Source of the DNA: Somniosus microcephalus
Taxonomy: Eukaryota
Length of the DNA stretch: 64,000 bases
Direction of reading: 5' to 3'
NCBI GenBank assembly: GCA_052327205.1
Contig: CM126222.1
Location: forward strand, 62,620,001 to 62,684,000
Below the pieces are notes generated by a model. That model was not told where the DNA came from. It saw nothing but the letters and a program-made list of their open reading frames with translations, and ran no database searches. The position numbers and the translations under genes are program-made. Below are positions 239 through 64,000 of this stretch, piece after piece (position 1 is the stretch's first letter; every line of letters begins with the position of its first letter).

Positions 239-683
239 CTGGAACACAGATTCACAATACTAATGTTGTGTACGGTTTCGTTAACCACAAGTGACAAACT
301 ATTATGGATCAGAACAAGTGAGCAAATTAGCTGCATAATAATGTATTAAAATGCTGTAAGTTAGCTGAATTGCTGACCTGCTAATGTGTTGTGTCAAAGC
401 AGAAATTGAAATATGCTTCTTTGCGCCAGCTGCACACACGTCTTCATTTTTACCAGGGCCAGTTTGTAAGCTGGCACGTCAGGGATAGAACCTCTCACCA
501 AAAACACACATTGGAAACTAAGTTGTTGCCAAAAACTCATGTGGTCTACATGCACTTGAATATTAGCAACATTATTCAGCCAAACATGAACTGACCACAA
601 TATGGACCTTTCACTTTACTGAGTTAGTGTTAGTTTTGCTGCCTTTTAATGCAAGAAACATATTATAAAGCAAGTGCTACCCT

Positions 684-810
684 GTCAAAAGGTCAACGAC
701 CTGAAACTTTAACTCGGTTTCTCTCTCCACAGATGCTGCCTGACCGGCTGAGTATTTCCAGCATTTTCTGTTTTTAATTCACATTTACAGCTTCCGCAGT
801 TTTTTGCTTT
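684..810 (+). mobile_element. Penelope-like element 3'/pLTR fragment
   Basis: Near-identical to 42922-43018; flanked by tgctaccct / tgctatcct, a probable TSD. Confidence 0.75.
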
Positions 811-2534: not shown

Positions 2535-4500
2535 CTGTTCCTGCAGATTGGAAGGCAGCAAATGTAACCCCACTATTTAAGAAAGGAGGGAGAGAGAAAA
2601 CGGGAACTAGACCAGTTCGCCTGACATCAGTAGTAGGGAAAATGCTAGAATCTATTATTAAGGACGTGGTAATAGGGCACTTAGAAAATAATAATAGGAT
2701 TGGACAGAGTCAACACGGATTTATGAAAGGGAAATTGTGTTTGACGAATCTTAAGAGATTTTCAGGTTGCAACTAGCAGAACAGATAAGGGGGAACCAGT
2801 GGATTTGGTGTATTTGGATTTTCAGAAGGCATTCGATAAGATGCCACACAAGAGGTTATTAAACAAAATTGGGGCTCATGGGATTGGGGGTAATACACTA
2901 GCATGGATTGAGGATTGGTTAACGGACAAAAAAAAGAGTAGGAATAAACGGGTCATTTTCGGGTTGGCAGGCTGTAACTAGTGGGGTACCGCAAGGATCA
3001 GAGCTTGGGCCTCAGCTATTCACAATCTATATCAATGATTTGGATGAGGGAACCAAATGCAATACAGGTTGAGCATCCAAAATCCAGAGTTCCGGAATCT
3101 GGACGATTGGTGGCAGGGTCGTCTGGAATCCAGAACTTCGGATTTTGGACGCTGAACCTGTACTTCAAAAAGCCATTAACTTTTGTTATCTTTTTTTGAA
3201 AAATCCTATGAAAAATGTGAGTGATACAATAAAACTTGAGTGTTGTGTGTTATCCTCCTTAATCTGCACAGCTCCACCAAGTGTTTCCGCCAGGCTGCGG
3301 CCACAGCACCACGCCGCCCTGGTGGCCTAGTGTGGGCCATCGGATGCTCTGCAGAGCTCGCAGCGTCCCTCCCCTTTAACAGAAGGGGAGGGGTGGAGAA
3401 ACGCATCAGCGCTACGCAGAGCGGCCCAGGCATTTCCGGACGCTGAACGTCTTTCTGATGTCCGAAGTCCGGAAACGCCCGAGCCCAGGTTGCGATATTT
3501 CCGGACTTCGGACATCAGAAACACGTTCCGAAGTCCGGAAACACATGAAAATTTGCTCGGGCTCGGTCCAGAGGTTGCCGGATTTTAGACACTCAACCTG
3601 TATATCCAAGTTTGCTGATGATACAAACCTGGGTGAGAATGTAAATTGTGAGGAGGATGCAGAGAGGCTTCAAGGGGATATAGACAAGCTAAGTGAGTGG
3701 GCAAGAATATGGCATAATGTGGAGAAATGTGAAGTTATCCATTTTAGTAGGAAAAATAGAAAAGCAGAGTATTTTTTAAATGGAGATTGGGAAATGTTGG
3801 TGTTCAGAGGGACCTGGGTATCCTTGTACAAGAATCACTGAAAGTTAACATGCAGGTACAGCAAGCAATTAGGAAAGCAAATGGTATGTTGGCCTTTATT
3901 ACAAGAGGATTTGAGTATAAGAGTAAAGACGTCTTACTGCAATTATATAGGGCCCTGGTGAGACCACACCTGGTGTATTGTGTACAGTTTTGGTCTCCTT
4001 ACCGAAAGAAGGATATACTTGCCATAGAGGGAGTGCAACGAAGGTTCACCAGACTGATTCCTGGGATGGGGAGGTTGTCCTATGAGGAGAGATAGACTAG
4101 GCCTATGATCTCTGGAGTTTAGAAGAATGAAAGGTGATCTAATTGAAACATACAAAATTCTTACAGGGCTTGACAAGGTAGATGCAGGGAGGATGTTTCC
4201 CCTGGCTGGGGAGTGTAGAACCAGGTCACAGTCTCAGAATAAGGGGTCAGCCATTTAGGACTGCGATGAAGAGAAATTTCTTCACTCAGGGTGGTGAATC
4301 TTTGGAATTCTCTGCCCGAGGGCTGTGGAGGCTCAGTCGTTAAGAGTATATTCAAGGCAGAGGTCGATAGATTTTTGGATATTAATGGAATCAAGGGATA
4401 TGGGGATAGTGGAGTTGAAGTAGATGATCAGCCATGATCTTATTGAATGGCGGAGCAGGCTCGAGGGGCCAAATGGCCGACTCCTGCTCCTATTTCTTAT
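2535..4500 (+). mobile_element. CR1 LINE 3' portion (degraded RT), interrupted by a MITE
   Basis: VDLVYLDFQKAFDK, SKFADDT, LYRALVRPHL.YCVQFWSP; CR1 3' tail gatcagccatgatc..gaatggcggagcaggctcga..ctcctgctcctat. Confidence 0.9.
3065..3600. mobile_element. Tigger/pogo-like MITE inserted in CR1
   Basis: TA|CAGGTTGAG...CTCAACCTG|TA; CR1 sequence resumes exactly across it. Confidence 0.85.
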
Positions 4501-41025: not shown

Positions 41026-43018
41026 CCGTCACTGACCTCATCTCCTCTGGAGATCTCCCCTCCCCACAGCCGCTACCTCCTTCCCAAGATCCACAAACAG
41101 GACTGCACTGGTAGACCCATCGTTTCAGCCTGTTCTTCCCCACGGAACTTATCTCTTCCTATCTCAACTCTTTTTTTCTCCACTTGTCCAGTCTCTTTCC
41201 ACCTACACCCGCGACTCTTCCGACGCCCTCCGCCACTTTAACAGTTTCCAGTTTCCTGGCCCCAACCGCCTCCTTTTCACTATGGGCGTACAATCCCTCT
41301 ACAACTCCATCCCCCACCAGGATGGCCTGAGGGTGCTCCGCTTCCTCCTTGTACAGAGGCCCAACCAGTCCCCATCCACCACCACCCTCCTCCGCCTGGC
41401 TGAACTTGTTCTCACATTGAACAACTTCTCCTTTGACTCCACTCACTTCCTCCAAATCAAAGGCGTTGCTATGGGAACCCGCATGGGTCCCAGCTATGCC
41501 TGCCTTTTCGTGGGATATGTGGAACACTTTGGTCCAGTCCTACACGGGTCCCCTCCCTCACCTCTTTTTCCGGTACATTGATGACTGTATCGATGCCGTT
41601 TCCTGCTCTCGCCCTGAACTAGATAATTTCATTCACTTTGCTTCCAATTTCCACCCTTCCCTCACCTTCACATGGTCCATCTCCGACTTCCCTTCCTCAA
41701 CTTCTCCGTCTCCATCTCTGGGGATAGGTTATTGACAAACATTCACTACAAGCCCACCGACTCCCACAGCTACCTGGACTACACTTCCTCCCACCCCGCC
41801 TCCTGTAAGGACTCTATTCCATTCTCCAAGCTTCTCCGTCTCCGCCGCATCTGCTCGGACGATGCCACCTTCCATACCAGTGCTTCTGACATGTCTTTTT
41901 CCTCAACCGAGGATTCCCCTCTACAGTGGTTGACACGGCCCTTAACCGTGTCTGTTCTATCTCCCGCACCCCTGCCCCTCCCTCCCAGAACCACGATAGA
42001 GTTCCCCTTGTCCTCACCTTTCACTCCACCAGCCTCCACATTCAACGGATCATTTTCTGCCACCTCCAGCGTGATCCCACCACCAAACGCATCTTCCCCT
42101 CACCTCCCCTTTCAGCATTCCGTAGGGGCCGCTCCCTCCACGACACCCTGGTCTACTCCTCTATCGCCCCCAACGCCCCTTCCCCCGGCACCTTCCCGTG
42201 CAAGCGCAGGAGATGCAACACATGCCCTTACACCTCCCCCCCTTCCCACTGTCCAGGGCCCCAAACACCCCTTCCAGGTGAAACAGCAATTTACTTGTAC
42301 TTCTTACAATTTAGTATACTGTATTCGCTGCTCACGATACGGTCTCCTCTACATTGGGAAGACCAAACGCAGATTGGGTGACCGCTTTGCGGAACACCTC
42401 CGTTCAGTCCGTAAGGGGCACCTCGAGCTTCTGGTCGCCTGTCACTTTAATCCACCGCTCCGCTCCCACTCTGACCTCACCGTCCTTGGCCTCTTGCATT
42501 GTTCCACGGAAGCTCAGCGTAAGCTCGAGGAACAGCACCTCATCTTCCGATTAGGCACTTTACAGCCTTCTGGACTCAACATAGAGTTCAACAATTTCAG
42601 ATCATAACCTCGGCCCCTATCATATGTATTTTTTATCCACACTTTTTGTCTGGGTCTTTTTTTCTTCTCTCCCACAGGGCAGCTGTCTTTCATTCTGCCA
42701 GCGCAATTTACACTTCATCTCGAGCCATCCTTTGTTTCTTAACTTGTCCCATTACCACCTCCTCTTGCCTTGAATATCTCAATCTCTCCTACCTTCTATC
42801 CTATCACAGGCCTTCCCTTTTGTTCTTTCATTTCCCCCCCCCCCCCGCAATTCCCAGCCACTACACTTGCTTAACAATGTGTTCCATAAAAATCTGTTCC
42901 ATTTCCTGCTTTTTTCCAGTTCTGACGAAAGGTCATCGACCTGAAACGTTAACTCTGTTTCTCTCTTCATAGATGCTGCCTGACCGGCTGAGTTTCTCCA
43001 GCATTTTCTGTTTTTATT
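41026..43018 (+). mobile_element. Penelope-like retroelement (Neptune-type), 5'-truncated and frameshifted: RT, Cys linker, GIY-YIG endonuclease, 3' pLTR
   Basis: LLPKIHK..GRPIVS, GVAMGTRMGPSYA, RYIDD, HYKPTD, linker CKRRRCNTC, LVYCIRC..LYIGKTKRRL..RFAEH, GLN end (stop at 42607). TSD TGAGAA (41020-25 / 43019-24) inside an L2 fragment. Confidence 0.9.
42918..42954 (+). ncRNA. Minimal type I hammerhead ribozyme motif (Penelope pLTR)
   Basis: AGTT-CTGACGA-A-AGGTC(ATC)GACCT-GAAA-CG-TT-AACT: stem I AGTT/AACT, 5-bp stem II, palindromic ACGT in place of stem III. Confidence 0.7.
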
Positions 43019-43559
43019 TGAGAATTTTAGGTTTGAGGCATTGGGGACAGTGGAGTGGTATGAAAAATCACCACTGATGTTATAAGTTTCATTTCCTTCC
43101 ATAAATGAAAATGGGTCCACAGAAGACGTTAAAGATTTCTGAGAAACTGGGGAAAAAAGCAAAACCAACCATAATATTGAATTAATTTCATGAAAGTTAT
43201 TTGTAATGGGAAACCTTTATTCAACCCACTATAAATTAGGAAACCCAAGTGGGTTAGAGTCAGAGTTGGTATATGTAATGCAGGATTGCATATCTTGACC
43301 TGCTATTTCTAAATGACCCAGATTACATACAAAAAGTAGAAATCATAGCACCCCTGGGGATAGTGACTGCAGAGCAATCAAGTTTGACATAATCTGGACT
43401 GAGTAATATCAAAGACCAGGAGCCAGGTTTATAATTTTTAAAGGGGTTAAATTCAAATAGGTGAGTGAAGAATTGAGACAAATGCATTGGAGGGAGGATG
43501 TTTGCCAACATTTCAGTAGAAAGCAAATGGGACGCCTTGGAAGTATATTACAGTGAGGA

Positions 43560-47332: not shown

Positions 47333-47886
47333 TAATACGAAAAGGTAAAATAATCAGAATGACAGAAGAAATAGGGTGAGCAAGAGTGTGTTCAGTTTTT
47401 ACTAATCAAAAGCTGAAGTGTGTTTTGTGGAAGGTCAATATTACAGCTAGAAAGTTATCTTTTGCATTTGAATAACTATTATTGTAATATTAGGCTTTGT
47501 TTCAGTTGTCAACTGAAAAGTTTAAAACCCTTGAGTGTTTGAAATTCCCTGACTGCCGTTGCTGCTGTGAGGATTAACGTACACATGATCATGTACGTTT
47601 TATTGTAGACTTGCTATATGTGGTAAAGATATACATCTTGTGGAGTCTCGTAGCGCCAATTATTGTAAAAGTAACTTATTTGGGTTGAAACCACAATAGT
47701 TCTCAAAGCAATATCTTCTGTTTTTGCTGAATACTGTAATTGTGCTGAGATTACATACAATTATCACCTTTTATAACCATCTTGCAACATATTCTTTGCA
47801 TGTTTTTTGTTGATAGTCTGACGTTTATTTTGCCTAACTCTCTTTTTTCCCCCCTTCAAATAGGTTTCTGCTTCTGCTGTGGCCTC

Positions 47887-48520
47887 ATGTCTGTACTCCT
47901 ATATGGTTTACCGGATGGAAATGATTCTATGAGCTCCCTTCGCATATCCGTTGGTGGTCTTCCTGTTATAGCTTCCATGACAAAAACAAGAGATTCTCGT
48001 TTTCACCTGAAATGGAAGGCGATACTAGCAGCTGCTATAGCTCTCTTCATACTATACATGCTATATTTTCACAAGGGTTCTCCAAATAGCCCTCATCAAC
48101 GAAATGTCCACAACTGGCAGATTGATAACTTTCCAAGGGACAGATACAATGACACTTACCCACTTTCGCCCCCACAGAAGACCCTGGAAGGCATCCGATA
48201 CCGTATCGGGCTTATTGCTGACCTGGACACAAACTCAAAGAATGAACTGAACAGTGACACTTGGTTCAGTTACCTAAAGAAAGGCTACTTGATTTTATCA
48301 AACAGCGGTGACAAAGTGACTCTAGAATGGGACAAAAATGAGTCCATTCTCAAAACGCATTTGTCAGAAAAAGGACGTGGCATGGAACTGTCGGAACTCA
48401 TAGCATTTAATGGAAAGCTTTACACTGTGGATGATAGGACAGGAGTGGTATATGCTATTGATGGGGACAAGGCGGTCCCTTGGGTAATCTTGTCAGACGG
48501 AGACGGAACTGTTGAGAAAG
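47887..48520 (+). CDS. CANT1: CANT1 (calcium-activated nucleotidase 1) first coding exon; exon starts at 47864
   Basis: caaatag| acceptor. [33 protein letters not shown], type II TM segment ([17 protein letters not shown]), [40 protein letters not shown]. Donor AAG|gtacc; 634 nt CDS. Confidence 0.96.
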
Positions 48521-48679
48521 GTACCATAGCAACTTACTCTAATTTTTCATTTGCACAAGTCATTTCTACTAGCCTTATGGAATACTGTAGATTGCCAGTC
48601 ACTATAAATCTTGAAACCTTCACATGGGAGTCTTTACTCTGAGTAAAGATTGGTGTATTTAATTTTCTGCTTTTTATAT

Positions 48680-49360
48680 TGTCACAAGCGCAGTAGGCCA
48701 GGATTAGACGAGCCGAGGATGTGAGCTGAAATGTAGATTGGAGGATGTTACAGCAGTAGGATCAGGAAAGGCATTGTGAACAAGAACAAGGATTTCTAAG
48801 TCCATGCATTGGGGGCTGCAGAGCCAATGGGATCATCTGTCAAGGATGTTGGGTGAACAAGGCTTACTGCAAGGTAGGATGCAAACAGCTACTTGCATTT
48901 ATATAGAGGGACAGAGACCTGATTTAAACAAGTAATGGGAGAAATGGGTGTATATTTGGGAGGTGACAACCTCTATTCAAGGACTTTGCAGGGAAAAAGG
49001 AGGTTGGAGATGGGGCATAGTTTGCAAGGACAGTGGGGTCAAAGGTGGGTGACGACTGCAGGTTTGAAAGAGAGGAAGCCCTTTATAATGTTAGCTAGCA
49101 TGGGTCCAGGAAGGGAAATTGATGGTCAGCTTACTGGGAAAGGGTCAAGAGAGCAGGAGGTGGGTTTCATGGAAGAGATAAGTGCAGAGAGATGGGGGAG
49201 AAACTAGACAGAGACCAGGATTCTGGGGAGCTTTAGCTTGGTGGGCAAGGGAGAAAAAGGGATGCAGCAGAGGGGGCTGAACAGATGAGGGGCTCAATAC
49301 CTTGGTGCAACAGAAGAGCACTTCAGAGGTGAGGGTGGAGGGGCAGGTGGAAAACTTACT
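48680..49360 (-). mobile_element. Old L2-type fragments
   Basis: Purine-rich L2 antisense signatures (agagccaatg, aaagggaggttggagatggggc-like). Confidence 0.5.
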
Positions 49361-49650
49361 GAATGTTTCCAGGCAGAGCGTATTGTTGTAGTATTTACTC
49401 ATTTTAAGTTACTCTATTATAGCCGTCACTGATAGTCAATTCTTGGATTAAATGTTACTGTTTTGTTAAACTGAAATTGTTATTTGTATGTATGACAATG
49501 ACAGTAACATTTTTTTTGCCCATTGTGTTGTTTCTGAGAGGATGGGCAGGTTACCTGCTCCCAATCCATTGTCATTGCCAATATAACTAGCTGTTGGCTT
49601 TGGAATGTTACCGAGTGTACAGAGGTGTTTTTCTCCCTCTCACTCTGCAA

Positions 49651-50097
49651 AAAGACTTGCATTTATATAGCGCCCTTCATGACCACCGGATGTCCCAAAG
49701 CGCTTTACAGCCAATTAAGTATTTTTTGAAGAGTAGTCACTCTTGTAATGTAGGAAACGCGGCAGCCAATTTGCACACAGTAAGCTCCCACAAACAGAAA
49801 TGTGATAATGACCAGATAATCTGTTTTTGTTATGTTGATTTGAGGGATAAATATTGGCCAGGACACAGAGAATAACTCCTCTGCTCTTCTTCGAAATAGT
49901 ACCATGGGATTTTTTACGTCCACCTGAGAGAGCAGATGGGACCTCGGTTTAACGTCTCGTCCGAAAGACGGCACCTCCGATAGTGCGGCGCTCCCTCAGC
50001 ACTGCACTGGAGTGTCAGCTTAGATTTTTGTGCTCAAGTTGCCAACCACCTTCTGACTCGGGTGAGAGTGCTACCCACTGAGCCACTGGCTGACACA
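49651..50097 (-). mobile_element. Deu-domain SINE (SacSINE1-like), near full length
   Basis: Minus strand: tRNA-like head gtggctcagtgggtagcactctcac, Deu core ggtgccgtctttcggacgagacgttaaaccgagg, L2-like tail ..gcgctatataaatgcaagtctt. Confidence 0.8.
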
Positions 50098-50605
50098 CAA
50101 GAAATGTGTGACCACTGATTCCTCCCAAAACCTATACAAAAAAAGGTTTTTGTAAGAAAATTAAAATAATGGGCCAAAGGAGGAATTACTCCGTACAGCT
50201 CCATGGGAAGCTTTTATGAACTGCTGTTTGAGGCAATTTGGTTAAAGTACTGAAACCAAAGCTTTCCCGCTGTAACTGTTTAATGAGAGTACTATGGGAG
50301 CAGTGATAGGAGCCCCAATCACTGCAGCACTCCAAAACTACCAGTGGCAACTAAACATGACTGTATCCTCAAAATCAGGATACCACCCTTGGGTAGCTGG
50401 AGATATATTTTCAGCTGATTGCTATTTTACTTTATATCAGTGCAACAGTGTATATATGATGCAAAAACAGAATGTGCTGGTTATACACAGGTCAGCCTGT
50501 AAAGGGAAAGGGCTAGTTGATGTTTCAGATGTATGCCCTTCATCCAGAACATTACTTGTATAATACCTTTGCTGTGACCCTACTTTTGCTGTGCTATTCC
50601 TTAAG

Positions 50606-50809
50606 GTTTCAAAGCTGAATGGTTGGCAGTTAAAGACGAGCACCTTTTTGTGGGTGGACTTGGTAAGGAATGGACTACCACCACAGGAGAGGTAGTCAAT
50701 GAAAATCCGGAGTGGGTGAAAGTTATTGGTTACAAAGGTGATGTAAATCATGAAAATTGGGTGTCTCACTACAATGCACTCCGTGCAGCTGCTGGAATCA
50801 AATCTCCAG
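50606..50809 (+). CDS. CANT1: CANT1 second coding exon
   Basis: ttaag|GT acceptor and CAG|gtaaga donor; [27 protein letters not shown]...NPEWVK...[18 protein letters not shown]; 204 nt. Confidence 0.96.
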
Positions 50810-52881
50810 GTAAGAGTTTTGGGGATAGGAAAGGTGTTTTAGTGACTCGATGCATGTACGTGGAGAAAACCTGTAGTGTATATATATTTGAGCTAAATGG
50901 AGTAATTTTTGACCTTTAGTAATGGGTGTGACAACATTAGATACGGGTGTTATTTTCCAGGACACTGACGAGCAGCGATCCTTGATCATGATTATGGATG
51001 CATCCAAAATTTGTAGTTTGGTGTGGGCATGCATCAAATAGATATAATTTTTTTAATACCCCAGTGAGGATGCATTATACATAAACATCAAAATCTCAGA
51101 TAAATGTCCCAGTGCTGCTTTTATTGATACTAGCCATCTTGACTAAATTCTGTGGTTCAGTCTGCTTTGACGAATGTACTTCAGAGTTCATGGGGATTTT
51201 ATTGACTCTAGTAAACCGTTGTCATCTCTGACCCCAAGATAAGGCTATGGATTCTGGAATTTGTATCTCATTGTCTCCTGATCAGATTTAAATTGATTTA
51301 CCTAAAGAGCATTGACATTGGGTGTACCTTTTAGCTGTGATCTGCAACTTCAACGACAGTCCTGGATCTTTAGGAATTGCCCACCTCTATGGACCTCCCC
51401 TTCTTTCCTTCCTCCCCGTCATTCCTTCACTTCCCCACCTATTTCCTCGTGGGTTTATCTTGGAAGAGTCGGAGAGAATTTTCTTTAGCCCCACCCAGCC
51501 AATGTTAAAGCTCTTTTTAACTTCCTCTAGAATTTAGTGCTATTCTAAACAAAAAACAAAGTCCACTGCACTCTGGAGAAACAAACCTAGAAATCTGATG
51601 GTTTGGTGTAGATGGCGCCACTTTACAAAAACATCTTGGCTACATTAGATCTTGTGTTTTGTCATAGAAATTGAAGTCTGATCATTTTAGATCAAGAGGT
51701 TACAGTACTCTGGCCACCACAGCCCTCAGAAGCTCATAATCTTCACTTCTTTAGAGCTCTGGCACACTATACCACTAGTGGTTTCCATCACAGTTATTTG
51801 TTTTGTTTGTAATAAAATGTTAGCCAATCCTATCACTAAGCAATGTATTACTCCAAATTACTTTAAAAATCAGATTATGATTGCATTAAACTATAGCCTA
51901 CACTGCAGTTTATTTTGTGAAAGAACACTTGTGGAACACTGCTATTGGCATTGCTTGCCTAGATTTATTACCATGTATGCTAACCGTCTTAGCTTTACTT
52001 TTCTGCTTTACACTAGAAATGTGCAATTTAAAGTTATATTTCCATGCAAGGACAGAGAATAGTTAATAGAATTGTATAATCAGCTGGGAATTACACCAAT
52101 TAACTGGATAACCAAAAACTTAAATTTTTACTGATTACCACATAACTATTCGTGCTATAGCTTTTAAAGTAGGGTTTAAGAGCAGCCAAATAATGCTGGT
52201 GGTGATTATCAGCTCTCATTTAGAGGGGCGTGTTGTCAAATGACCCTTTTTCAATGCCTTTTATTTGTAACTAACATGCCTTAATCATGGAAGGATCTGC
52301 TCCAGGGGCATCTGTTGATTATCTGCATAGTTTTGATTTAATCGATCAAAACTCTGGTTTCAGACCACCTCAGAAGGGTCATTGATGCCATTGTTAGCCA
52401 ATTACCTGATGCTGCCTTTGTCGTCAGCACTGCCTTCTTCTGCATTCGAGGGTTGTGTCCATTAGTTACATTTATAATGAGATTTAGCTATTTTCACTTT
52501 TGCCATTTTCAAATGTTGGTTAGCCATTCTAGATAGCTTATTGTGTTTTTGTATTATCAACATGTGATATCTGAAGTCAGGAGGTAATTTTAAAAATAGC
52601 TGCAGTTTATAGTATGCTGTATATGTTTGATCGTGTTCTATGTACTGTTTTAGTAATGAAAGTTAACATTTTATTTACTGTAGTTTTTCTTCTGTTAAAC
52701 AACTCTGCTGTGGTCACTAAAATAAAACCAATTCAGCAAGATTTTTATGGGAAGCTTACAAGGAAGGATAAAGTGTTATTGAATCTTCATAAGGAAAATT
52801 ATACTGTAAAATCACTGTCTGAAATTTAAACTTTGCATCTCTTCTCTCCTCCTCCTCCCCCCCCCGCCCCGCCCCCCGTAG

Positions 52882-53252
52882 GATATCTCATTCATGAATC
52901 TGCAGCCTGGAGTGATCGACTACAGCGCTGGTTCTTCCTGCCACGGCGAGCGAGCAGTGAGCGCTACAATGAGAAAGATGACGAACACAAAGGAACAAAC
53001 CTCATTATTAAATGTACTCAAGATTTTAAGGAGGTCTTGGTGAGCAAGATTGGAGTGGTTAACCCTACTCATGGATTCTCTTCCTTTAAGTTCATTCCAG
53101 ATACGGACGATCAGATCATTGTGTCGCTGAAATCCGAGGAAGATAATGGGAAAATAGCAACTTATATTCTGGCTTTTACCTTAGATGGACGCTTCCTTTT
53201 AGAGGAAACAAAAGTGGGGGATATAAAATATGAAGGAATAGAATTTATATGA
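52882..53252 (+). CDS. CANT1: CANT1 last coding exon (total 402 aa)
   Basis: cgtag|GA acceptor; [25 protein letters not shown]...[11 protein letters not shown]...LKSEED...KYEGIEFI-stop (TGA at 53250-52); 371 nt. Confidence 0.96.
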
Positions 53253-62509: not shown

Positions 62510-62653
62510 GGACCTGTCTGACCTGCTCTTGTAGCCACAGCATTTCTGTGGCTGGTCCAGTTACGTTTCTGGTCAATGGTGACCCCCCCAAGGTGTTGAT
62601 AGTGGGGGATTCGATGATGGTAATGCCATTGAATGTCAAGGGGAAGTGGTTAG
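62510..62653 (-). mobile_element. Fragment of the second non-LTR family, cut by the Gypsy LTR
   Basis: Matches 15840-15970 (ctgacctgctcttgtagcca...cattgaatgtcaaggg). Confidence 0.75.
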
Positions 62654-63033
62654 TGTGTCCGTGTATAATAAGACACAGACTGCGGAGAACGGCACAACAG
62701 TTGTTTACTCAACGTGGCTCACAGTGGAACTGATCTGTACAGATTACTACTCAGGGCTATATACAGGTGTGGTCACTGCCGGTACTGCAGTATACATGAG
62801 CTGTAAAAGATATGGTGTGGAGATGCCGGAGTTGGACTGGGGTGGACAAATGTAAGAAGTCACACAACACCAGGTTATAGTCCAACAGCTTTATTTGAAA
62901 TCACAAGCTGAAGAAGGAGCAGCGCTCCGAAAGCTTGTGATTTCAAATAAAGCTGTTGGACTATAACCTGGTGTTGTGTGACTTCTTACATCTGTAAAAG
63001 ATAGTTCTCCCCTTAAAAGGTATATACATTACA
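62654..63033 (-). mobile_element. Gypsy 3' LTR (~190 bp once the internal insertion is removed)
   Basis: Minus strand TGTAATG...GGACACA, preceded by polypurine tract AAAAGGGGAGGAAT (63034-63047). Confidence 0.7.
62813..62991. mobile_element. Inverted (fold-back) Penelope-like pLTR insertion with a hammerhead core, 12-bp TSD
   Basis: Perfect 60-bp IR 62850-62909 / 62932-62991; TSD CTGTAAAAGATA at 62801-12 and 62992-63003; core CTGAAGA-A-GGAGC(AGC)GCTCC-GAAA-GCTT. Confidence 0.75.
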
Positions 63034-63139
63034 ATTCCTCCCCTTTTAGATTAACAGTACCATAACACTCATTTAACATAAATATCAAACTAATTACAAT
63101 TAACACTTTTAACATGCAACATTAGCTGAAAATAGTTAT

Positions 63140-64000
63140 TTATATATTCAGTCTTTGGGGAGGCTTCCTGATCCTTTCTGGATAGCGCCTTTCCCGACTG
63201 TCTTGCTCTTGGTGCGGAGGCGATTCTGGCCCCCTGTCGTCGGTTGGTTCATCAGCTTCCGATGCTACTGTTTCTGGGGTAGATGCAACCTGTACGTCGG
63301 GTTCATCACCAGGTATGTATGGGCGAGGCATGGGGTTGACTTGTTCCTGTGACTCTAGGATCTGGTCAGCATGGCATCTCACGATGCTCTCCCCAACATC
63401 CACTGTGTACATTAGTGGGCCCTGCCGTGTGCATATCGTTCCTGGCTGCCATTTTTCTGTTGGGTAATCGCGGGCCAAGACTGGTTGCCCTACATTGAAG
63501 CTCCTTGTTGGCTTCTCATGGATGTGCTGGAATTGCTTACTCTCAACATCTCTTCATACGTTTGGTCTGAGCAAATCCAGGTGAGATCTTAACCTTCGGT
63601 TAAAGAACATCATGGTTGGGGCCTGGTTGGTGACTGCATGTGTCGCATTCTGGTAGGCGAACAGGAAATTGTCCACCTTGTGCTGCAGCGGAATGTTGTC
63701 ATTGTACATAGCCTTTATTGCCTACTTAAAGGTTTGTACGAACCTCTCAGCCAATCCATTTGTGGCTGGATGATACGGGGCGGATGTGTAATGCCTTACC
63801 CCATTCTTTTTCAAGAACCTCCGGAACTCTTCGGACACAAACTGTGGTCCGTTGTCGGAGCAAATCTGTTCTGGCAAGCCATTCCTGGCAAAAATGGTCC
63901 ATAGGACTGCAATAGTTTTCTCCGTGGCGGTGGAGGACATTTTGATGACCTCAGGCCATTTCGAGTGCGCATCCACGGCTATTAAAAACATTGAGTCCAT
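63140..64000 (-). mobile_element. Gypsy/Ty3 LTR retrotransposon pol 3' end (integrase), pseudogenised
   Basis: VDAHSKWPEV, FARNGLPEQICSDNGPQF, SAPYHPATNGLAERFVQTFK, then a stop; C-terminal RRYPERIRKPPQRL; runs off the window end. Confidence 0.9.

What the first reader, a model, noticed from the sequence alone, without database searches (positions are those of the whole stretch)
62801..63003. Perfect 60-bp fold-back with a hammerhead core at its tip, inserted into a Gypsy LTR
Seen: a 179-bp insert between 12-bp direct repeats CTGTAAAAGATA; arms 62850-62909 and 62932-62991 are exact reverse complements. The 22-nt spacer and adjacent bases read CUGAAGA-A-GGAGC(AGC)GCUCC-GAAA-GC-UU-GUGA: the same architecture as the 42.9-kb hammerhead (extra A, 5-bp stem II, 3-nt loop, palindromic tetramer, here AGCU) with a different sequence, so a second family. 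The inversion breakpoint falls exactly at the core's first CU, so full arm pairing would sequester C3-U4 and the cleavage site. Inference: an inverted pLTR made by template switching at the ribozyme, or a non-coding retrozyme-like unit giving an auto-inhibited ribozyme on a Dicer/ADAR-length dsRNA stem.
Basis: partly seen in the sequence, partly recalled or inferred. Interest (0 to 1): 0.7.

Follow-up and report, generated by a model that had tools for sequence, protein, structure and literature searches.

The report
Folded-back Penelope stub with dead ribozyme
This hairpin is a young stub of a known jumping gene (a Penelope-like element) whose end was inserted twice, back to back, as in thousands of other places in this genome; its self-cutting RNA motif has lost a stem and likely cannot cut, so the locus is ordinary, though the family's junctions hint at how such back-to-back copies are likely made.

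Summary
The sequence is as described. It is a 5'-truncated head-to-head insertion of a Penelope-like element (PLE): inverted 3' end with the 37-nt tail, direct 3' end without it, 12-bp target duplication, in one LTR of a Gypsy whose other LTR is empty. The tail-arm 32-mer has 8,521 exact copies; 61 of 90 sampled copies are head-to-head; 3.1-kb parents exist. Breakpoints are about 3.5-fold enriched around the hammerhead, but not at C3-U4: this junction has 5 copies against 405 at a palindrome a few bases upstream. This copy has lost helix I (1 of 4 pairs), so the ribozyme is likely dead, not auto-inhibited; it fails the retrozyme tests. The anatomy is published, and this scan reported such fold-backs before on other DNA of this genome. 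Possibly new at family level: exactly one tail in 40 of 40 copies, equal mirror forms, arms sharing variants and a TATA/Inr-like site just upstream suggest both target ends prime on one RNA and run off its 5' end. That is inferred; RNA reads did not test it.

The parts
62801..62812 (.). Left target-site duplication (12 bp)
   Evidence: single copy in the empty partner LTR
62813..62849 (-). PLE tail, 37 nt (element +85 to +121 with hammerhead C3 = +1), inverted; ends at the A of the parent ORF's start codon
62850..62909 (-). Left arm: inverted copy of the pLTR 3' end, element +84 down to +25; runs 5 nt past the predicted cut site
62908..62909 (.). Junction, 2-nt microhomology shared by both arms
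   Evidence: sequence; 5 exact copies of this junction in the genome
62908..62991 (+). Direct, 5'-truncated copy of the pLTR 3' end, element +1 to +84, no tail (includes the right arm 62932-62991)
62908..62940 (+). Remnant minimal type I hammerhead: core 62908-62914, extra A 62915, helix II 62916-62928, GAAA 62929-62932, palindromic tetramer 62932-62935, predicted cut after 62936; the 5' strand of helix I is missing
62992..63003 (.). Right target-site duplication (12 bp)
62654..63033 (-). Host Gypsy 3' LTR (about 189 bp without the insert); insert lies about 30-42 nt from its upstream end; 4 of 189 differences to the partner LTR
   Evidence: 5,269 exact copies of a 23-mer of this LTR
63035..63047 (-). 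Gypsy polypurine tract
   Evidence: sequence
63731..64000 (-). Gypsy integrase core, continuing beyond the window into RT/RH/PR/gag
   Evidence: rve E=2.5e-18
62649..62653 (.). Gypsy 5-bp target-site duplication, in a LINE-like flank (LINE identity recalled, not tested)
41627..42954 (+). Comparison only: a different PLE family, GIY-YIG frame 41627-42607 followed by a hammerhead with a 4-bp helix I (core at 42922)
   Evidence: PF01541 E=2.7e-5; 26% protein identity to this family's ORF

Best explanation
The insert is a young, 5'-truncated, head-to-head insertion of a Penelope-like retroelement whose hammerhead has lost helix I and likely cannot cut, likely made when both nicked ends of the target primed reverse transcription on the element's RNA and the two short cDNAs were joined. 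Shown: family identity, parents of 3.1 kb, tail on one side only, target duplication, loss of helix I, junction counts (about 0.93 for this part). Inferred (about 0.5): the enzyme nicks both strands about 12 bp apart; one end starts at the far end of the tail (+121, the ORF start), the other at about +84; both copy the same RNA; a TATA/Inr-like promoter puts the RNA 5' end at about -6, so many cDNAs run off just upstream of the ribozyme; the two antisense cDNAs anneal through short self-complementary words, which the ribozyme region supplies, most often the palindrome straddling C3. In this copy one cDNA ended at +25 and joined at +1/+2 through 2 nt. The product is a passenger with no expected function.
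For: 8,521 exact copies of the tail-arm 32-mer, 0 for the reversed control. 61 of 90 sampled copies have an opposed partner; 42 have a target duplication, mostly 12-14 bp as scored. Long copies run into an RT frame (RVT_1 E=1.4e-9) with a C-X4-C-X2-C linker and a GIY-YIG-like end. L236 is pLTR-ORF-pLTR-tail (period 3,132 bp), L238 adds an inverted pLTR. Helix I pairs: 4 of 4 in an intact copy, 1 of 4 here; C3, U4 and the cut site are paired with P>0.98. For two primed ends: 40 of 40 copies chosen by junction have exactly one tail, 18 against 22 in the two mirror forms; 0 of 45 visible partner ends carry a tail; the partner reaches further 5' than the tailed arm in 33 of 61, so it is not simply copied from it. 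For one template: arms agree at diagnostic sites, 37 of 38 (24.8 expected), 21 of 23 (10.7), 19 of 19 (9.5), and share a deletion in L193. For a nearby RNA start: ends fall at 1.5-1.8% per nt in -11..0 and 0-0.45% in -23..-12; a TATA-like word at about -36 and an Inr-like word at -8..-2 are kept in long copies. In vitro an anole PLE starts reverse transcription at the two ends of the tail and extends both strands (PMC11167929).
Against: No read evidence for the RNA start: neither RNA run shows a pile-up of starts at -6 or at the cut site (table 6; fragmented libraries over many copies, so weak either way). Arm agreement could also come from one subfamily being active at a time or from later conversion; only 3 shared variants were private to a copy, and L078 is discordant at 4 sites, L039 and L085 at some. 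22 of 61 junctions have inserted bases, not microhomology. Copies with two tails exist (L005/L027, L016). The enrichment window -11..+33 was chosen after seeing the data. The GIY-YIG Pfam hit (E=0.0048, 17.6 bits) is below the cut-off. Drosophila Penelope has a TATA-less promoter (PMC2377424).
Confidence: 0.8

Rival explanations
1. Same element, but the fold-back is made by self-priming: one cDNA (or an antisense template) folds back at a palindrome and is extended, as proposed for rotifer PLEs.
For: The commonest junction (405 copies) is a perfect palindrome with a 2-nt centre, and the variant with the longer palindrome is enriched there (24 of 40 against 21 of 64, p=0.008). Explains arm identity directly. 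Proposed in PMC3846280 (passages).
Against: The partner reaches further 5' than the tailed arm in 33 of 61 copies; mirror forms are equally common; the predicted cDNA hairpins are weak, -0.8 to -1.7 kcal/mol. Fold-back followed by pairing with a second cDNA would give the same product as the best explanation, so the two are not fully separable.
Confidence: 0.2
2. This copy began as a longer palindrome (for example the common class) and lost its centre by a later deletion.
For: Long perfect palindromes are prone to central deletion (general knowledge); the window's junction can be reached from longer junctions by one deletion (sequence).
Against: The copy is very young (60 of 60 arm identity, identical to L003 at another site); the same junction recurs at 5 sites in two subfamilies and in both mirror forms; 405 perfect palindromes persist undeleted.
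Confidence: 0.1
3. One reading: a non-coding retrozyme-like unit that spreads by itself and carries an auto-inhibited ribozyme on a dsRNA stem.
For: One other locus has the identical 179 bp with another target duplication (L003). Family RNA reads show more A>G and T>C differences than DNA contigs (18/21 and 17/15 against 5/8 and 4/7), a weak hint of editing.
Against: 5 copies of this junction, split between two N7 variants and both mirror forms; no tandem units in 30 best loci; helix I absent; two complete hammerheads in tandem define active retrozymes (10.64898/2026.07.22.740005). The RNA and DNA runs are not from one individual.
Confidence: 0.03
4. The palindrome is an assembly or read artefact.
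For: No read or contig laid spans it.
Against: Target duplication against an empty partner LTR, asymmetric tail, 22-nt spacer, an identical copy at another site, thousands of relatives with their own duplications.
Confidence: 0.02

Closest known systems
Complex insertions of endonuclease-positive Penelope-like elements (PMC8557442, PMC3846280, PMC2377424; passages read)
   Same: 5'-truncated copies, inverted copy adjacent at the 5' end, 30-40-bp tail on one end, target duplication of about 9-13 bp, partial-tandem parents, palindromes at inverted junctions.
   Different: Here both halves are so short that only a 179-bp fold-back remains; junction classes and the one-tail rule are counted across a family.
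PAc, Poseidon of Anolis carolinensis (PMC11167929; parts 1-2 of 4 read)
   Same: Tail bounded by two preferred ends; hammerhead in the pLTR next to the ORF start; uncut RNA used as template (arms here run through the cut site).
   Different: In PAc the ORF starts inside the hammerhead and the tail lies in the ORF; here the tail is 5' UTR and ends at the start codon, and the protein has a Neptune/Nematis-type linker.
Minimal hammerheads of metazoan PLEs (PMC4209133; parts 1-2 of 4 read)
   Same: Core, extra nucleotide after A9, G10.1-C11.1, palindromic positions 15.2-16.2, no helix III as monomer; that paper also notes pairs on opposite strands.
   Different: Helix I is lost in this copy and the cut site is buried in a 60-bp duplex.
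Non-LTR retrozymes of animals (PMC7229834 abstract; 10.64898/2026.07.22.740005 part 1 of 5 and passages)
   Same: Short, non-coding, type I hammerhead, PLE-derived.
   Different: Not tandem, one incomplete ribozyme, no uniform unit; inverted rather than head-to-tail.
L1 twin priming (recalled, not read here)
   Same: Second target end primes on the RNA; inverted piece joined by short microhomology.
   Different: In L1 the inverted piece is a different, upstream part of the RNA; here the two pieces copy the same region and differ by the tail.

Membership tests
EN+ Penelope-like element insertion | Belongs to an element with an RT frame | tested here: met
   RVT_1 E=1.4e-9 and 3.2e-7 in two long copies
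EN+ Penelope-like element insertion | C-terminal GIY-YIG endonuclease | tested here: met
   Pfam hit weak, E=0.0048, below cut-off, but aligns with the window's GIY-YIG frame, E=3e-19, with two cysteines before the YIG motif
EN+ Penelope-like element insertion | Partial-tandem parent pLTR-ORF-pLTR | tested here: met
   L236, L238
EN+ Penelope-like element insertion | Inverted 5'-truncated copy and 30-40-bp tail on one end, with target duplication | tested here: met
   37-nt tail, 12-bp duplication; 61 of 90 copies head-to-head
Neptune/Nematis clade | CX2-5CxxC linker between RT and endonuclease | tested here: met
   C-X4-C-X2-C in L124; definition in PMC8557442
Neptune/Nematis clade | Placement in an RT tree with reference PLEs | not tested
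   no reference set on hand
Minimal hammerhead (min-HHR) | Core, extra nucleotide, G10.1-C11.1, palindromic 15.2-16.2 | tested here: met
Minimal hammerhead (min-HHR) | Helix I of 4-5 bp | tested here: not met
   1 of 4 pairs here, 4 of 4 in intact family copies
Minimal hammerhead (min-HHR) | Self-cleavage as a dimer | not testable with these tools
   needs a bench assay; no Rfam hammerhead hit at E<=1 in the window
Non-LTR retrozyme | Tandem units with at least two complete hammerheads | tested here: not met
   single unit here; none tandem among the 30 best loci
Non-LTR retrozyme | Uniform unit that spreads as such | tested here: not met
   5 copies of this junction in two subfamilies; junctions vary
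Non-LTR retrozyme | Abundant unit-length linear and circular RNA | tested here: inconclusive
   two RNA runs cover the family on both strands; no unit ends seen, one 34-nt go-back joint in 15 reads not at the ribozyme
Ty3/Gypsy LTR retrotransposon (host) | Two LTRs, 4-6-bp duplication, polypurine tract, PR-RT-RH-IN order | tested here: met

The most novel reading that the evidence does not exclude
The thousands of short fold-backs are a genomic record of the PLE mechanism: a protein dimer primes both target ends on one RNA at the two ends of the tail, the second cDNA displaces the first, both run off an RNA start about 6 nt upstream of the hammerhead core (a strong-stop-like product), and a palindrome built into the ribozyme's 5' edge joins them. 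This would explain inverted pLTRs and the one-sided tail together.
Probability: 0.4. Interest if true: 0.6.

Novelty: new member of a known kind. Interest (0 to 1): 0.27.

Why it matters
The locus itself matters little: a dead passenger in a young Gypsy LTR. The family matters a little more. How PLEs make inverted pLTRs and a one-sided tail is called unresolved in PMC8557442 and PMC11167929. This very young family, with thousands of copies, gives sharp predictions (RNA start near -6, one template for both arms, one tail per insertion, one dominant junction) that the existing in vitro PLE system could test. It also warns that hammerhead counts in such genomes include many truncated, buried motifs.

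Tried and rejected
Rfam scan of the window gave only generic hairpin hits and no hammerhead. A 68-base DNA search of the genome returned nothing because its words are too common; patterns were used instead. The first 30 loci are ranked by likeness to the query and so biased to similar junctions; they were not used for breakpoint statistics. No RNA holder on record was listed; two raw RNA runs of a species label holding 0.90 of the words were laid. They showed no pile-up at the predicted start or cut site, and nothing spanned the window's palindrome: no verdict. Cleavage-site run-off as the main source of junctions: rejected, 21 copies. Microhomology length alone: rejected, the 5-nt helix II junction has only 15 copies. 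Spread of the insert by the host Gypsy: rejected, only 2 loci carry this LTR-insert junction, with different inner junctions, and their LTRs are no more alike than other LTR pairs. Intron of the apyrase gene: rejected. Minimum-energy folds do not give the hammerhead even for intact copies, so folding says nothing on activity beyond helix I. Sequence look-up in earlier findings was empty. Paper searches returned nothing.

Full report
1. Observation. The direct repeats (62801-62812, 62992-63003), the 179-bp insert, the two exact 60-bp arms and the 22-nt spacer are as described. The RNA folds at -129.8 kcal/mol, z = -18. A scan for hammerhead cores found two in the window, at 42922 and 62908; Rfam found neither. 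The host is a Gypsy on the minus strand: LTR 62654-63033, partner LTR beyond the window with a single copy of the 12-mer, a 5-bp duplication and Pfam hits for protease, RT, RNase H and integrase. The two LTRs differ at 4 of 189 positions, while arms and duplication have no mismatch, so the insert is younger than its host.

2. What it is. The whole insert matches a dispersed family: 1,226 candidates, 40 scored, one identical over 179 bp at another site with another duplication. A 32-mer spanning the tail and arm has 8,521 exact copies in 6.4 Gb. I took the first 90 of the 100 listed places (all on C1, 1-55 Mb; chosen without regard to the junction) and mapped them on one natural long copy, L124, with hammerhead C3 as +1. 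61 of 90 have an opposed partner within 70 nt, 5 run beyond the 1.5-kb flank, 24 show none; L048 and L049 are duplicates counted twice, and one end (L062) was set by hand. Long copies lead into an RT frame ending in a C-X4-C-X2-C linker and a GIY-YIG-like domain (the Pfam hit is below cut-off), which points to the Neptune/Nematis type as defined in PMC8557442; no tree was made. Of 17 loci with a tail extended into a start codon, 4 continue in a shared frame. L236 is pLTR-ORF-pLTR-tail with a period of 3,132 bp, L238 has an inverted pLTR in front. So the window's insert is: tail (+121 to +85) and +84 to +25 inverted, then +1 to +84 direct. This is the anatomy described for PLEs: inverted 5'-truncated copy, 30-40-bp tail on one end, target duplication (PMC8557442; PMC3846280; PMC2377424). 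The 42.9-kb element is another family: 26% protein identity and only a 44-nt nucleotide match between the pLTRs.

3. The ribozyme. Intact copies have all marks of the minimal hammerhead of PMC4209133, with a 4-bp helix I. In this copy the 5' strand of helix I is replaced by the end of the left arm; 1 of 4 pairs remains. C3, U4 and the cut site sit in the duplex with P>0.98. Removing the left arm removes any 5' strand for helix I. The motif also needs a second copy for helix III, and none is near. The Gypsy transcript would carry the antisense, and the apyrase gene's last coding exon ends at 53249. The ribozyme is therefore likely dead, not held in reserve; this is inferred, not assayed.

4. 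Is the breakpoint special? Ends of both arms are enriched in -11..+33: 31 of 90 tailed arms and 20 of 61 partners, about 3.5 times the flanking rate (p about 1e-8, window chosen after seeing the data). The peak is at -11..0, followed by a drop. Exact genome counts, each covering both mirror forms: this junction 5, cut-site/helix I junction 21, helix II junction 15, and the junction at the palindrome straddling C3 405. The 5 are split between two N7 variants and both mirror forms, so they arose separately.

5. Mechanism. In 40 of the 405 (taken from the first 41 listed, leaving out one already in hand) exactly one end has the tail, 18 left and 22 right; none of 45 visible partner ends in the unbiased set has one, though two loci among the 30 best matches have two. 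Arms of one copy agree at subfamily sites far above chance; in the 40 copies 22 variants are shared by both arms and 43 lie on one arm, 17 of these from one truncated copy aligned into its flank; only 3 shared variants are private. The partner reaches further 5' than the tailed arm in 33 of 61. A TATA-like word at about -36 and an Inr-like word with its A at -6 are kept in long copies (35 of 46 with one exact form). PMC11167929 shows two RT start sites bounding the tail, extension of both strands and uncut RNA as template. Together these favour priming from both target ends on one RNA, run-off at a start just upstream of the ribozyme, and joining through short self-complementary words. All of these steps are inferred. 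Against them: no read support for the start, 22 of 61 junctions with inserted bases, a few discordant copies, and a TATA-less promoter in Drosophila Penelope. Self-priming, proposed in PMC3846280, remains a live rival for the joining step.

6. Reads. Two RNA runs and DNA-like contigs cover the family on both strands. A>G and T>C differences are more numerous in RNA than in contigs, but the runs are not from one individual and reads come from many copies, so this is only a hint. Nothing laid spans the window's palindrome; the empty LTR site is seen.

7. Known and new. The anatomy and the ribozyme type are in print. Earlier notes of this scan report folded-back PLE ends, buried hammerheads and ends at the ribozyme's front edge elsewhere in this genome; I had noted the start-site idea before that look-up, and they are not independent support. 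I found no paper giving the one-tail rule, junction classes or twin priming for PLEs in searches; most subscription papers are not searched, older PLE papers cited there were not read, and no supplements were opened (the figures S1-S2 of PMC11167929 may bear on the tail ends). Seen: PMC11167929 and PMC4209133 parts 1-2 of 4; PMC8557442, PMC3846280, PMC2377424, PMC6155905 passages; the 2026 preprint part 1 of 5 and passages; PMC7229834 abstract. L1 twin priming is recalled.

8. Verdict. Real, young, ordinary: a new member of a known kind. Interest 0.27, carried by the family-level pattern, not by this locus.

Noticed in passing
G000, pattern; loci L179-L218: One junction, a perfect palindrome with a 2-nt centre just upstream of hammerhead C3, has 405 exact copies, about 80 times the window's junction; it occurs in three N7 subfamilies and both mirror forms.
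   Followed up: yes
L002 / L169 (C18:66202601) and window 62801: The same nucleotide of the Gypsy LTR was hit twice, in two elements about 4.5% apart, with different inner junctions; about 0.003 second hits expected under uniform insertion, so a target preference is likely. Duplications are AT-rich (66% against 53% in flanks) and 23 of 42 follow a C.
   Followed up: partly
L045, L057, L058; L006, L020: Other repeated target sites: three insertions at what looks like one site of a LINE-like repeat, two at one site of another repeat.
   Followed up: no
L171-L178 (21 copies): Fold-backs joined at the predicted cut site keep helix I, extended by the whole arm; these, not the window's copy, are the candidates for an intact core at a hairpin tip.
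   Followed up: partly
L078, L039, L085: Arms discordant at subfamily sites, suggesting that some insertions use two templates.
   Followed up: no
L124:5500-6052: More A>G and T>C differences in RNA reads than in DNA-like contigs, a possible sign of editing of family transcripts; not from matched individuals.
   Followed up: partly
L232-L235: Four loci on small contigs share one flank after an extended tail, probably a duplicated or satellite-like region.
   Followed up: no
window 682-779 and 42922-43019: A second copy of the other PLE family's pLTR end, 90% alike.
   Followed up: no
window 47749-53249 (+): Three exons of an apyrase-domain gene (PF06079).
   Followed up: partly
window 3433-3541: Another short palindrome, 80% self-complementary over 110 nt.
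   Followed up: no
L031-L032 (window-based 72,000-82,000): Further long open frames and LTR-like 39-mers related to the host LTR just beyond the Gypsy.
   Followed up: no
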